Shown: piece after piece, positions 22,628-23,729 of the stretch
How the letters are laid out: every line of letters starts with the position of its first letter
Numbering within the stretch: position 1 is the stretch's first letter
Virus record (IMG/VR): IMGVR_UViG_3300027908_000080
Coordinates: 1-51,816 of that record
Reading direction: 5' to 3' (one strand)
DNA from: a virus
Lineage: Duplodnaviria; Caudoviricetes
DNA: 51,816 nt
The notes under the pieces: generated by a model
What the model saw: only the letters and a program-made list of their open reading frames with translations
Told to the model about the DNA's origin: nothing
Databases searched by the model: none
Position numbers and translations under genes: made by a program

Positions 22628-22879
22628 ATGACAGTATTTACATCTTACTTACATACATCATATACTTGGAATCACAAAGAGAATAAACGTATAGGTTTTA
22701 TAAATGAAGATGATGCTAAGTATGCTGTATATTGTGCAGTAAGAAGACAAAGAAGATTAAGATTTAAAAGAATAAATAATTTTATTTGTGCAGAATCTTC
22801 TAACAATCCTACAATAGCAGTTGAAAATTATGATACCACCAACAAAGAACAACCTACAGAAAGAGCCAACAAAGTATAG
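22628..22879 (+). CDS. Hypothetical protein
   Basis: 83-aa ORF. Confidence 0.45.
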   Translation: MTVFTSYLHTSYTWNHKENKRIGFINEDDAKYAVYCAVRRQRRLRFKRINNFICAESSNNPTIAVENYDTTNKEQPTERANKV

Positions 22880-23729
22880 TCAATCCACACTTCAAACATT
22901 CCTAGATAATGGGATGATAGAAGTAGTTCAGAATATACTTAATCTTAATCCAGACCTTAAATATAAAATAGAGAATGGAAAATTGTTAGACTCTGTAACA
23001 GGAGCAGCATTGTGGCTTAAGAAGTTTATTACTGAGGATGCGGATTGTATAACTCTTAAACAAGATGCAATGAAGTTAGCTAAAGTTGATGATGAAGTTC
23101 TAATAACTGGTGAGACTGGAACAGGCAAGGAAATAATAGCTAGAGCTATGATAGGAGATAGAGAAGGGGACTTTAAAAGGGTTAATTGTGCGGCAATGCC
23201 GGAAGCTCTTATTGAAGCAGAATTATTTGGCTCAGTTGCAGGAGCATACACTGGTTCTACAGGTGCGAAGAAAGGAATGATATTATCAGCGAATAATGGA
23301 GTAATGTTTTTGGATGAAGTTGGAGACCTTCCATTATCTATTCAGGCGAAACTTCTCAACGTATTGCAACCAATAGAGGGTAAAAGATTTATTCGCCCAG
23401 TGGGTTCTACAGAAGAAAAAGAAATAACTTGTCGTTTCGTCTGCGCGACTCATAGAAACTTATTAGATATGGTGAAGGCTGGAGCATTTAGACTTGACCT
23501 TTATGCTCGTATAAGCACTTTTGAATTACACATAAAGCCATTGAGAGAAAGAAAGGCTGACATAATTCCTATTGTAATAGCCTTAGGAGAACTTCTGAAA
23601 ATAAATACTAAGGTTTTCTTGGAGAAATATACAGAAGATATTATCTATGATAGCTCATTTGACCTCTCACTTAATGTAAGGTCAATAGAGAGAGCGATAA
23701 AAAGGTTTAGTGTATTAGGAAAAATATGA
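22821..23729 (+). CDS. Sigma54-dependent transcriptional activator (bEBP AAA+ domain) lacking a C-terminal HTH and any recognisable sensor domain
   Basis: VLITGETGTGKE, VNCAA, EAELFG, GAYTGS (GAFTGA loop), FLDEVG, QAKLL, RFVCATHR, FRLDLYAR, PLRER, NVRSIE; the protein ends ~14 aa after sensor II. Confidence 0.95.
   Translation: MKIMIPPTKNNLQKEPTKYSQSTLQTFLDNGMIEVVQNILNLNPDLKYKIENGKLLDSVTGAALWLKKFITEDADCITLKQDAMKLAKVDDEVLITGETGTGKEIIARAMIGDREGDFKRVNCAAMPEALIEAELFGSVAGAYTGSTGAKKGMILSANNGVMFLDEVGDLPLSIQAKLLNVLQPIEGKRFIRPVGSTEEKEITCRFVCATHRNLLDMVKAGAFRLDLYARISTFELHIKPLRERKADIIPIVIALGELLKINTKVFLEKYTEDIIYDSSFDLSLNVRSIERAIKRFSVLGKI

What the first reader, a model, noticed from the sequence alone, without database searches (positions are those of the whole stretch)
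22821..23729. Phage-encoded minimal sigma54 activator with no DNA-binding domain
Seen: all bEBP AAA+ motifs are intact (GAYTGS variant of GAFTGA), the N-terminal ~70 aa is not a recognisable sensor, and there is no HTH after NVRSIE. Known: HTH-less bEBPs (Helicobacter FlgR, Chlamydia CtcC) activate without enhancers, and GAYTG variants occur in functional bEBPs. Inference: a constitutive, enhancer-independent switch that turns on replication (its nearest promoter is ~210 bp downstream) and late promoters, and may also deregulate the host sigma54 regulon. A dominant-negative role is the alternative.
Basis: partly seen in the sequence, partly recalled or inferred. Interest (0 to 1): 0.86.

Follow-up and report, generated by a model that had tools for sequence, protein, structure and literature searches.

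The report
Phage-encoded minimal sigma-54 activator
An uncultured 52-kb phage carries a stripped-down copy of the bacterial ATPase that switches on sigma-54 RNA polymerase, plus matching sigma-54 promoters in front of its main operons, so it probably runs much of its gene programme through the host's alternative sigma factor.

Summary
ORF 22821-23729 (likely start ATG 22830, 299 aa) is a bEBP AAA+ core (Pfam PF00158, E 4e-51). Every catalytic motif is present, the sigma54-contact loop reads GAYTGS, and the protein ends about 15 residues after sensor II with no HTH. Its ~70-aa N-terminal domain has no Pfam or fold match.

The window is a complete virus record. It holds 10 exact TGGCAY-N6-TGCW sites against 0.26 expected, and 8 lie outside ORFs, correctly oriented. 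It encodes no sigma54.

The gene is a conserved core gene of a large uncultured lineage of ~50-kb phages: 172 viral contigs, with 58 of 64 viral rows in one clade free of bacterial sequences. In 64 of 76 loci a same-strand sigma54 site follows the gene within 800 nt. The correct spacing occurs 165 times against 6-19 for wrong spacings.

An activator role is therefore well supported. "Constitutive" and "enhancer-independent" are not shown. Sigma54 sites also precede the activator's own operon, and short phage-specific repeats abut a subset of promoters.

The host is unknown and there is no expression data. This scan has reported the same kind on other DNA (149 notes in at least 128 genomes). 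My five literature searches found no published description.

The parts
22821..23729 (+). bEBP-type AAA+ activator gene (302 aa from TTG 22821; probable start ATG 22830, 299 aa)
   Evidence: ORF. PF00158 E 4.1e-51. P0001 is 299 aa and 100% identical. FleQ, NtrC1 and PspF match by sequence and by fold.
22821..23045 (+). N-terminal ~70-75 aa region: disordered basic/Pro tail (aa 1-20), then helix 21-29, helix 33-42, beta-hairpin 48-57 and helix 62-67; function unknown
   Evidence: Models. No Pfam hit. No fold match. A profile of 22 members finds only 26 cluster representatives among 1.84 billion proteins, mostly ~300-aa bEBPs or short fragments.
23028..23528 (+). Sigma-54 interaction (AAA+) domain proper, aa 70-236; the lid and sensor II run on to the stop codon
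   Evidence: G000:C1:23028-23528, 175 bits.
23109..23132 (+). Walker A GETGTGKE (aa 97-104)
   Evidence: Read. G97, G100, G102, K103 and E104 are invariant in 36 of 36 sequences.
23241..23258 (+). L1 sigma54-contact loop GAYTGS (aa 141-146); the family consensus is GAFTGA
   Evidence: G141 and T144 are invariant.
23307..23324 (+). Walker B FLDEVG (aa 163-168)
   Evidence: D165 and E166 are invariant.
23355..23405 (+). LLN plus a 4-aa insertion (PIEG) at the base of the pre-sensor-I (L2) hairpin: ...AKLLNVLQPIEGKRFIRPVG
   Evidence: of 36 sequences, 20 have LLR with no insertion, 15 have LLN with the insertion and 1 has LLT with it. There are no mixed forms.
23726..23902 (+). 58-aa ORF whose ATG overlaps the activator's stop codon (ATGA); homologue found in 1 of 80 loci only
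   Evidence: No PHROG or Pfam hit.
23938..23953 (+). Sigma54-type -24/-12 site TGGCATGAAAAATGCT, 209 nt after the activator gene and ~400 nt before the 24367 operon
   Evidence: The position is conserved in 64 of 76 loci.
23922..23929 (+). AGTAGATA element 8 nt upstream of the -24 element; also at 4490-4497 (-) and 11942-11949 (-)
   Evidence: Three of the six AGTAGATA copies in the window lie at this fixed offset from TGGCATGA-type sites.
24367..33970 (+). Operon downstream of the 23938 site: two unknown genes, PD-(D/E)XK-like exonuclease, HNH, Sak4-like annealing protein, DNA polymerase in two ORFs, primase, MazG
   Evidence: PHROGs. Synteny is conserved in relatives.
16405..16420 (+). Sigma54-type site TGGCACACAAAATGCT, outside ORFs, upstream of the gene string 16534...helicase-ligase-activator
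   Evidence: Relatives usually have a same-strand site 4-10 kb upstream of the activator gene.
14879..14894 (+). Sigma54-type site TGGCACAAAACTTGCT, outside ORFs
12498..12763 (+). Three rightward sigma54-type sites (12498, 12694, 12748) in the divergent control region
11919..11934 (-). Leftward sigma54-type site TGGCATGAAAAATGCT heading the arm that holds the terminase large subunit (9188-10987)
   Evidence: Terminase identified (27% identity to the Akkermansia phage terminase, E 1e-32).
4466..4481 (-). Leftward sigma54-type site TGGCATGATTCTTGCT before ORF 2990-4384 (function not established here)
   Evidence: No family or solved-structure match for the ORF.
1957..1972 (-). Sigma54-type site inside the 5' part of ORF 1-2040; status uncertain
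42363..42378 (+). Sigma54-type match antisense inside ORF 42192-44081; most likely a chance match

Best explanation
The gene encodes an active bEBP-type AAA+ ATPase consisting only of the sigma54-remodelling core plus a lineage-specific ~70-aa N-terminal domain.

Proposed mechanism:
1. Host RNA polymerase carrying host sigma54 forms closed complexes at the phage's -24/-12 promoters. The phage has no sigma54 of its own.
2. The phage activator assembles into a ring (inferred from the family).
3. It contacts sigma54 through its GAYTGS loop.
4. It uses ATP hydrolysis to open those promoters.

The gene is the last conserved gene of a helicase-ligase operon. A sigma54 promoter lies immediately after it and heads the recombination/replication operon. 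Others head the leftward packaging/virion arm. Accumulation of the activator would therefore turn on the later gene classes.

Shown here: domain identity, motif integrity, absence of an HTH, promoter enrichment, and conservation of the gene-promoter pair across the lineage.

Inferred: ATPase activity, ring formation, sigma54 contact, use of host sigma54, timing, and action from solution.
For: Protein:
- PF00158 E 4e-51. PDB bEBP cores match at E 1e-42 along the whole AAA+ domain. The confident model matches bEBP central domains.
- Catalytic residues are invariant in 36 of 36 family members at 48-80% identity to the query. That argues for a working ATPase.

Promoters in the window:
- 10 exact TGGCAY-N6-TGCW sites against 0.26 expected; 0 of 100 shuffles reach 10.
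- 8 of the 10 lie in the 15.7% of the genome outside ORFs, all pointing into the adjacent operon.
- Sites with one mismatch are not enriched: 11 extra against about 10.5 expected.

Co-occurrence in relatives:
- 172 viral contigs encode a relative.
- In 80 loci (1.21 Mb) the N6 spacing occurs 165 times, against 19, 6, 7, 7, 12 and 19 for N3, N4, N5, N7, N8 and N9. 73 of 80 loci hold at least one site.
- In 64 of 76 evaluable loci a same-strand site lies within 800 nt after the gene, typically at +30 to +70.
- Beyond the imposed bases, the sites prefer G after TGGCAY (61%) and T at the last position (96%), as in the textbook consensus, which I recall rather than looked up.

Genomic context:
- The order helicase-ligase-g22309-activator-[site]-g24367-g24993-exonuclease-Sak4-polymerase is kept at 30-60% protein identity.
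- No sigma54 domain is encoded: PF04552 and PF04963 give 0 matches at E<=1.
- Neither sigma70-type sites (56 against 54.5 in shuffles) nor Bacteroidota-type sigmaA sites (6 against 5.98) are enriched.

Precedent:
- The AAA+-only DctD250 activates sigma54 promoters from solution without an enhancer in E. coli and Salmonella (passages read).
- FlgR, CtcC and FleT are natural bEBPs that lack a DNA-binding domain (passages read).
Against: - There is no experimental or expression evidence. No RNA run could be listed, so no transcription start is known.
- The host is unknown, so the presence of rpoN in it is assumed.
- Sigma54 sites also precede the operon holding the activator gene, and no enriched sigma70-type promoter was found. 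How the first activator molecules are made is therefore unexplained.
- The N-terminal domain could be a regulatory or targeting module, in which case the protein is neither constitutive nor free-acting.
- Two of the ten sites (1957-1972 and 42363-42378) lie inside ORFs and may be chance matches.
- The 18-kb stretch 51651-33939 has no site of its own.
- The loci are redundant: several are near-identical (L032/L033, L008/L010, L062-L081), so the counts of 64 of 76 and 165 overstate the number of independent observations.
- One family member has GAATGV in the L1 loop (P0015). The loop is therefore not under absolute constraint.
Confidence: 0.7

Rival explanations
1. It is the same activator, but it is targeted rather than free. 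The lineage-specific N-terminal domain, or a partner protein, reads short phage-specific repeats that abut a subset of sigma54 promoters. The protein would then work as a promoter-proximal enhancer-binding protein and distinguish two promoter classes.
For: - Three window promoters (4481, 11934, 23938) share AGTAGATA 7-8 nt upstream of TGGCATGA. These are 3 of the 6 AGTAGATA copies in the window.
- In relatives, pairs of RTATAAY lie within 60 nt upstream of 19 of 159 unique sigma54 sites. They are direct or inverted and about 10-11 nt apart. The random rate is 0.22%, and four permuted control words give 0-3 of 159.
- These pairs recur at the promoter after the activator gene and at one promoter 5-6.5 kb upstream of it.
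- The N-terminal domain is conserved within the clade, yet more variable than the core (35% against 55% mean column identity). That is what a co-evolving specificity module would look like.
Against: - The N-terminal domain has no HTH or other DNA-binding family or fold match.
- Its folded part (aa 21-72) has a net charge near -1 by my count, which is unlike most DNA-binding domains.
- 245-257-aa relatives with almost no N-terminal region (L040, L063, L065) still have repeats next to their downstream promoter. The repeats therefore need not be read by this domain.
- Because the gene ends 30-70 nt before the site, part of the upstream window is coding sequence or could be a terminator.
Confidence: 0.2
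2. The protein mainly reprogrammes the host. As a promiscuous activator it switches on the host's sigma54 regulon, while the phage promoters are served by host bEBPs.
For: - AAA+-only DctD250 turned on 16 of 20 predicted sigma54 operons in Salmonella (passages read).
Against: - The tight, conserved pairing of the gene with a phage sigma54 site (64 of 76 loci) points to phage targets.
- So does the motif's enrichment in the phage genomes themselves.
- Both effects could coexist.
Confidence: 0.1
3. It is a dominant-negative or decoy bEBP. It would poison host activator rings or sequester sigma54, for example to block a sigma54-dependent stress or defence response.
For: - The L1 loop deviates from GAFTGA in this phage.
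- LLR is replaced by LLN with a 4-aa insertion near the L2 hairpin in 16 of 36 family members.
Against: - Walker A and B, R230, T144 and sensor II are invariant in 36 of 36 members. A decoy would not need to keep them.
- F to Y and A to S occur in working bEBPs.
- A decoy does not explain the phage's own sigma54 promoters.
Confidence: 0.04
4. It is an AAA+ motor with a role outside transcription (remodelling of another target), and the -24/-12-like words serve another purpose.
For: A phage AAA+ protein with bEBP-like fold (Htm, gp204 of Mosigvirus AV110) lacks the GAFTGA loop and its role is unsettled (abstract and passages read).
Against: - Here the GAFTGA-type loop is present and the profile match to PF00158 covers the full length.
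- The DNA motif has the exact sigma54 spacing and co-occurs with the gene.
Confidence: 0.03

Closest known systems
FleT of Rhodobacter (Cereibacter) sphaeroides: a type Ic bEBP that lacks both the signal and the DNA-binding domain
   Same: It is a stand-alone sigma54-activating AAA+ core with no HTH (classification passage read in PMC3162934).
   Different: - FleT is cellular and, as I recall, works together with FleQ in flagellar control.
- The phage protein belongs to a separate clade found on viral contigs: 58 of 64 viral rows, with none of the 69 bacterial rows inside.
- It carries its own ~70-aa N-terminal domain, which was not found outside this family.
- It sits in a viral genome next to its target promoter.
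Helicobacter pylori FlgR and Chlamydia CtcC: bEBPs without a DNA-binding domain
   Same: They have no C-terminal HTH. FlgR is described as enhancer-independent (reference title and classification passages read).
   Different: - Both keep an N-terminal receiver domain and are controlled by phosphorylation.
- The phage protein has no receiver, GAF or PAS domain.
Engineered AAA+-only activators such as DctD250 (DctD residues 141-390)
   Same: It has the same minimal architecture. DctD250 is constitutive and promiscuous and acts from solution on many sigma54 promoters (passages read in PMC3844500).
   Different: - DctD250 is a laboratory truncation that gave about 10-fold lower output than enhancer-bound NtrC.
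- The phage protein is a natural, conserved gene with an extra N-terminal domain and cognate promoters.
Htm (gp204) of Mosigvirus AV110, a phage AAA+ protein with bEBP-like fold (bioRxiv 10.64898/2026.10.06.757011)
   Same: It is phage-encoded, has a bEBP-like AAA+ fold, lacks a C-terminal HTH, and has an N-terminal domain not seen in bEBPs (abstract and passages read).
   Different: - Htm lacks the GAFTGA loop and has DD in place of DE in Walker B.
- In the passages I read, no sigma54 promoters in its own genome are reported.
- The protein studied here has all bEBP motifs and a genome full of -24/-12 sites.
Phage takeover of host RNA polymerase by phage-encoded sigma factors or sigma appropriators (T4 gp55/gp33, MotA/AsiA; recalled, not looked up)
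   Same: A phage-encoded factor redirects host RNA polymerase to phage promoter classes in a temporal cascade.
   Different: Those systems replace or remodel sigma70-family factors. This one would use the host's sigma54 unchanged and supply only the ATP-driven activator.

Membership tests
bEBP (sigma54-dependent AAA+ activator, Pfam PF00158) | Full-length match to the sigma54-interaction domain profile above the curated cut-off | tested here: met
   173.4 bits against a cut-off of 20.2; profile positions 2-167 of 168. 175 bits in the genome search.
bEBP (sigma54-dependent AAA+ activator, Pfam PF00158) | Walker A, Walker B, sensor I, arginine fingers and sensor II all intact | tested here: met
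   GETGTGKE, FLDEVG, ATH, FRLDLYARIS and LNVRSIE are present. K103, D165, E166, T210, R230 and R287 are invariant in 36 of 36 sequences; R224 is kept in at least 90%.
bEBP (sigma54-dependent AAA+ activator, Pfam PF00158) | GAFTGA-type L1 loop inserted in helix 3, with the Thr kept | tested here: met
   The loop reads GAYTGS, T144 is invariant and the family consensus is GAFTGA. Y for F occurs in HrpS and TouR, and S for A in PrpR (passages read).
bEBP (sigma54-dependent AAA+ activator, Pfam PF00158) | ATP-dependent binding to sigma54 and open-complex formation | not testable with these tools
   This needs biochemistry or reporter assays. No host sigma54 is known.
bEBP (sigma54-dependent AAA+ activator, Pfam PF00158) | Ring (hexamer or heptamer) assembly | not tested
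   Inferred from the family only. I ran no complex prediction, because a pass would rest on likeness to solved bEBP rings.
Type Ic bEBP lacking a DNA-binding domain (FlgR, CtcC, FleT class) | No HTH_8 or other DNA-binding domain after the AAA+ lid | tested here: met
   The protein ends 12 residues after sensor II. There is no HTH family at E<=1. The FleQ alignment reaches residue 296 of 302. None of the 120 best homologues carries an HTH family in the precomputed Pfam column.
Type Ic bEBP lacking a DNA-binding domain (FlgR, CtcC, FleT class) | No signal-input domain (the FleT-like subtype) | tested here: inconclusive
   No receiver, GAF, PAS or V4R domain was found. However, a conserved ~50-aa folded N-terminal module of unknown function is present.
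Sigma54 (-24/-12) promoter | GG and GC elements ten bases apart within TGGCAC-N5-TTGCW-like words, in front of operons | tested here: met
   10 exact TGGCAY-N6-TGCW sites against 0.26 expected. Spacing control: 165 against 6-19. 8 of 10 lie outside ORFs and are correctly oriented.
Sigma54 (-24/-12) promoter | Transcription start about 11-13 nt downstream of the GC, dependent on rpoN | not testable with these tools
   No RNA run could be listed.

The most novel reading that the evidence does not exclude
This phage lineage carries a self-contained, two-tier sigma54 transcription system.
- Nearly all its operons are read by host sigma54 polymerase.
- Its own HTH-less activator is aimed at a subset of promoters by a new kind of N-terminal module, or a partner, that reads phage-specific repeats placed directly against the -24 element. 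In this phage the repeat is AGTAGATA; in relatives it is paired RTATAAY.
- This gives the phage an orthogonal, ATP-gated switch between early and later gene classes that needs no sigma70 promoters at all.
Probability: 0.15. Interest if true: 0.88.

Novelty: new variant of a known kind. Interest (0 to 1): 0.74.

Why it matters
Phages are known to redirect host RNA polymerase with their own sigma factors, sigma appropriators or polymerases. A viral gene programme built on sigma54 promoters with a virus-encoded ATP-driven activator appeared in none of my five literature searches.

If confirmed, it would:
- add a new mode of viral transcription control;
- show that the bEBP core alone is a sufficient, evolutionarily stable activator in nature;
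- predict that rpoN is a host dependency factor for a widespread uncultured phage lineage;
- supply compact natural activator-promoter pairs for orthogonal gene circuits.

The claim is directly testable in E. coli or Salmonella, because AAA+-only bEBPs work across species.

Tried and rejected
**Close relatives and cultured phages**
- A megablast of 20000-28000 against the phage collection found no match.
- A tblastn of the protein against that collection gave 63 records, all under 60% identity. Many look like bacterial contigs filed as phages, being annotated as zraR, glnG, atoC and the like. I did not use them.

**Host**
- A scan of 185,579 species genomes gave only ordinary bacterial bEBPs. 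Identity was 33-51%, mostly over the AAA+ part, and there was no prophage copy.
- The terminase and primase reach at most 27% identity in cultured phages.
- There are no tRNAs.
- The cluster look-up gave no names.
- Only 13 of 50 gene starts have even a 4-base Shine-Dalgarno-like word, against 11% of random windows. This weakly suggests a host with little Shine-Dalgarno use, such as Bacteroidota. That is an inference from recalled knowledge, and I do not claim it.

**N-terminal domain**
- My idea from memory that it is an excisionase/MerR-like winged helix got no support. There was no Pfam hit, the Foldseek best E was 2.8 and the VIA-align best Z was 2.7.
- The isolated-domain model is only pLDDT 66, so these searches are weak.

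**Other promoter types**
- Sigma70-type promoters and Bacteroidota sigmaA-type promoters are not enriched.
- One-mismatch sigma54 sites are not enriched.
- AGTATAAY is not enriched in the window itself: 12 against 8.4.
- TGTC-N9-GACA gives 2 exact sites against 0.46 expected, with 7 of 100 shuffles reaching 2. This is suggestive only.

**Other searches**
- Rfam found no family at gathering score.
- Pfam, PHROGs and PDB gave nothing for the neighbouring small genes or for most virion-arm ORFs.
- Expression: no RNA holder was listed, and read laying was not used.
- No complex prediction was run.
- No supplementary files were opened. Supplementary Fig. S2 of the HrpRS paper, which lists the loop variants, was not seen.
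Full report
**What is there**

The window is a whole virus record of 51,816 bp, 36% G+C, rated 100% complete by CheckV. An ORF runs off one end, so the record is probably circularly permuted.

The flagged ORF is real: 22821-23729 on the + strand, 302 aa from a TTG. Three things point to ATG 22830 as the start: the public gene call of 299 aa, the Atlas record and the MIP... starts of homologues.

Pfam gives the sigma54-interaction domain at E 4.1e-51 over aa 70-236. 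It gives no DNA-binding family even at E<=1.

Against solved structures, the best hits are bEBP AAA+ domains of FleQ, NtrC-family proteins, LuxO, FlrC, ZraR and PspF. The FleQ alignment runs to residue 296 of 302, pairing the family's WPGNVREL motif with LNVRSIE.

A model built on 36 homologues has mean pLDDT 91.8. It superposes on bEBP central domains at target TM about 0.8.

The motifs are Walker A GETGTGKE, EAELFGS, L1 loop GAYTGS, Walker B FLDEVG, FRLDLYARIS and sensor II NVR. The catalytic residues among them are invariant across 36 family members that are only 48-80% identical to the query.

The two departures from GAFTGA both occur in working cellular bEBPs. Y for F is found in HrpS and TouR, and S for A in PrpR (passages read in PMC3105312 and PMC3162934).

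**The N-terminal part**

Residues 1-20 are a low-confidence basic, Pro-rich tail. Residues 21-67 fold as two helices, a beta-hairpin and a helix.
- It has no Pfam match in any of 22 members.
- It has no significant structural neighbour. The isolated-domain model is only pLDDT 66, so that negative is weak.
- A profile of the domain finds just 26 cluster representatives among 1.84 billion proteins. Nearly all are ~300-aa proteins of this family or short fragments.
- More distant viral relatives replace or lose it, and some are 245-257 aa.

It is therefore a lineage-specific module of unknown role.

**The promoters**

TGGCAY-N6-TGCW occurs 10 times in the window against 0.26 expected; none of 100 shuffles reaches 10.

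Eight of the ten sites lie in the 15.7% of the genome outside ORFs, and each points into the adjacent operon:
- rightward: 12498, 12694, 12748, 14879, 16405 and 23938;
- leftward: 11934 and 4481.

The other two (1957-1972 and 42363-42378) are inside ORFs and may be chance matches. Relaxing the pattern by one mismatch adds only what chance predicts.

The 23938 site is 209 nt after the activator's stop codon. It heads a ~400-nt ORF-free leader and then an operon of:
- two unknown genes;
- a PD-(D/E)XK-like exonuclease and an HNH endonuclease;
- a Sak4-like annealing protein;
- a DNA polymerase in two ORFs;
- a primase and MazG.

The 11934 site heads the leftward arm with the terminase large subunit. 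The functions of the other large leftward ORFs could not be confirmed.

The phage encodes no sigma54. Neither sigma70-type nor Bacteroidota-type sigmaA promoter words are enriched.

**Relatives**

The 120 best homologues in the large protein collection are 47-100% identical and 221-329 aa long. They carry only AAA+ families in the precomputed Pfam column, and many lie on contigs of 48-53 kb. The search admitted lengths up to 529 aa.

In the viral contig collection, 172 stretches encode a relative, and I kept 80 loci.

In bacterial genomes (one per species), the best matches are ordinary bEBPs at 33-51% identity, mostly over the AAA+ part. There was no prophage copy.

I built a FastTree of 133 AAA+ domains: 64 viral and 69 bacterial. 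Rows under 180 aligned residues, rows with stop codons and identical rows were dropped.
- 58 of the 64 viral rows fall in one clade without any bacterial row (SH-like support 81, midpoint root).
- The window's protein sits in a clade of 28 viral rows with support 96.
- The six viral rows outside belong to G+C-rich contigs, some encoding long, ordinary-looking bEBPs.

- Over the 80 loci (1.21 Mb), the correct spacing N6 occurs 165 times. Spacings N3, N4, N5, N7, N8 and N9 occur 19, 6, 7, 7, 12 and 19 times.
- 73 of 80 loci hold at least one site.
- I left out four loci in which the gene is cut by the locus end (L003, L017, L053, L060) and one with only 441 nt downstream (L054). Of the remaining 76 (75 loci plus the window), 64 have a same-strand site within 800 nt after the activator gene, most often 30-70 nt after it.
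- The 12 without one include the G+C-rich outliers.
- Many loci are near-duplicates, so these are not 64 independent events. The pairing nevertheless holds across proteins down to about 38% identity.

Gene order around the pair is conserved: helicase, ligase, a 105-aa gene, the activator, the site with a long leader, then g24367, g24993, exonuclease, Sak4 and polymerase. Relatives also usually have a same-strand site 4-10 kb upstream of the activator gene, as the window does at 16405.

**What this supports**

The simplest reading is a working, phage-encoded sigma54 activator whose targets are the phage's own promoters.

The invariance of ATPase and sigma54-contact residues argues against a decoy or dominant-negative role.

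By analogy with DctD250, an AAA+-only fragment that activates many sigma54 promoters from solution in E. coli and Salmonella (passages read), the protein could act without an enhancer. It would then probably also fire host sigma54 promoters.

Natural bEBPs without a DNA-binding domain are known: FlgR, CtcC and FleT. FleT, which also lacks a signal domain, is the closest architectural match.

**What it does not support, and what I add**

First, the activator's own operon lies behind sigma54 sites, and I found no other enriched promoter type. The start of the cascade is therefore unexplained. The candidates, all untested, are:
- an unrecognised promoter;
- a packaged protein.

Second, there appear to be two promoter classes. 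The sites at 4481, 11934 and 23938 all read TGGCATGA...TGCT and carry AGTAGATA 7-8 nt upstream. These are three of only six AGTAGATA copies in the window.

In relatives a different word plays this part. Pairs of RTATAAY, direct or inverted and about one helical turn apart, lie within 60 nt upstream of 19 of 159 unique sigma54 sites. The random rate is 0.22%, and four permuted control words give 0-3 of 159. The pairs occur typically at the promoter after the activator gene and at one promoter 5-6.5 kb upstream of it.

Some sequence-specific factor therefore probably works right next to a subset of promoters. Whether it is the activator's N-terminal domain is open. The domain's near-neutral charge, and the presence of repeats in clades whose activator lacks the domain, speak against that.

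Third, 16 of 36 family members, this one included, have LLN or LLT plus a 4-aa insertion where the other 20 have LLR and no insertion. The two states covary perfectly, at the base of the pre-sensor-I hairpin.

**Known or new**

Five full-text searches found no description of a phage-encoded bEBP with cognate sigma54 promoters.

The nearest paper is a 2026 preprint on Htm (gp204) of a T4-like phage. Htm is a bEBP-like AAA+ protein that lacks the GAFTGA loop and has an altered Walker B (abstract and passages read).

PHROGs holds a family of unknown function (phrog_7998) that matches at E 1.7e-32, so relatives sit unannotated in databases.

Within this scan the same kind has been reported before on other DNA: 149 notes in at least 128 genomes. 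Three follow-ups reached the same reading. Their agreement is not independent evidence.

I class the finding as a new variant of a known kind. The protein is a bona fide bEBP core. The new elements are the viral setting, the gene-promoter cassette and the apparent reliance of a whole phage programme on sigma54.

**Limits**

There is no host, no transcript data and no biochemistry. The promoter pattern was fixed in advance from the textbook consensus. No supplementary files were read.

Noticed in passing
L004:4150-4253, L005:4160-4266, L011:4870-4977, L019:6030-6137, L020:4460-4562 and 11360-11468, L021:4440-4542, L024:4840-4946: Pairs (once a triplet) of RTATAAY, direct or inverted and about 10-11 nt apart, lie directly upstream of a subset of sigma54 sites in relatives. 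The count is 19 of 159 unique sites against 0.22% of random windows; permuted control words give 0-3 of 159.
   Followed up: partly
window 4490-4497 (-), 11942-11949 (-), 23922-23929 (+): AGTAGATA lies 7-8 nt upstream of the three TGGCATGA-type sites that head the big operons. This suggests a second promoter class with an extra upstream element.
   Followed up: partly
window 12466-12900: There are several 17-bp TGTC-N9-GACA-like repeats: exact at 12534-12550 and 12882-12898, with diverged copies near 12486, 12605 and 12667. They lie among the three rightward sigma54 sites and share TAATAATGG with the -24 element at 12498. This is the subject of another first-reader note.
   Followed up: partly
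window 23954-24366 and the matching stretch in L004, L005, L009, L015, L023: An ORF-free leader of roughly 300-800 nt between the sigma54 site after the activator gene and the first gene of the next operon is kept in many relatives (about 120 nt in L016). It gave no Rfam match.
   Followed up: no
window 23355-23405 (aa 179-195): LLN or LLT plus a 4-aa P[IV][DE]G insertion covaries perfectly with the absence of LLR: 16 against 20 of 36 family members.
   Followed up: yes
L040:9971-10708, L063:1628-2401, L065:9962-10702: Some viral relatives are only 245-257 aa, with about 25 residues before the AAA+ domain. These are truly minimal activators, and each is still followed by a sigma54 site 49-60 nt downstream.
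   Followed up: partly
P0015 (homologue, 66% identical): Its L1 loop reads GAATGV, with Phe replaced by Ala. In PspF, as I recall, such a change abolishes activity.
   Followed up: no
window 29397-31010 and 31146-32207: The DNA polymerase is split into two ORFs separated by 135 nt. Both match the same PHROG family (phrog_17), at profile positions 628-959 and 969-1241.
   Followed up: no
window 12071-12147: Tandem 20-nt repeats (12108-12127 and 12128-12147, 95% identical) and a 30-nt-spaced pair (12071 and 12101) lie in the divergent control region between the leftward and rightward promoters.
   Followed up: no
window 17193-17228: A 16-bp-stem hairpin lies just after gene 16534-17169 with no T-run behind it. 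It could separate the 16405 transcript from the helicase-ligase-activator genes.
   Followed up: no
window, 50 gene starts: Only 13 of 50 starts have even a 4-base Shine-Dalgarno-like word, against 11% of random windows. Most starts are preceded by A/T-rich sequence.
   Followed up: partly
window 22628-22879: An 83-aa ORF overlaps the start of the activator gene by 50 nt in another frame. It has a homologue in only 1 of 80 loci, so it may not be a gene.
   Followed up: no
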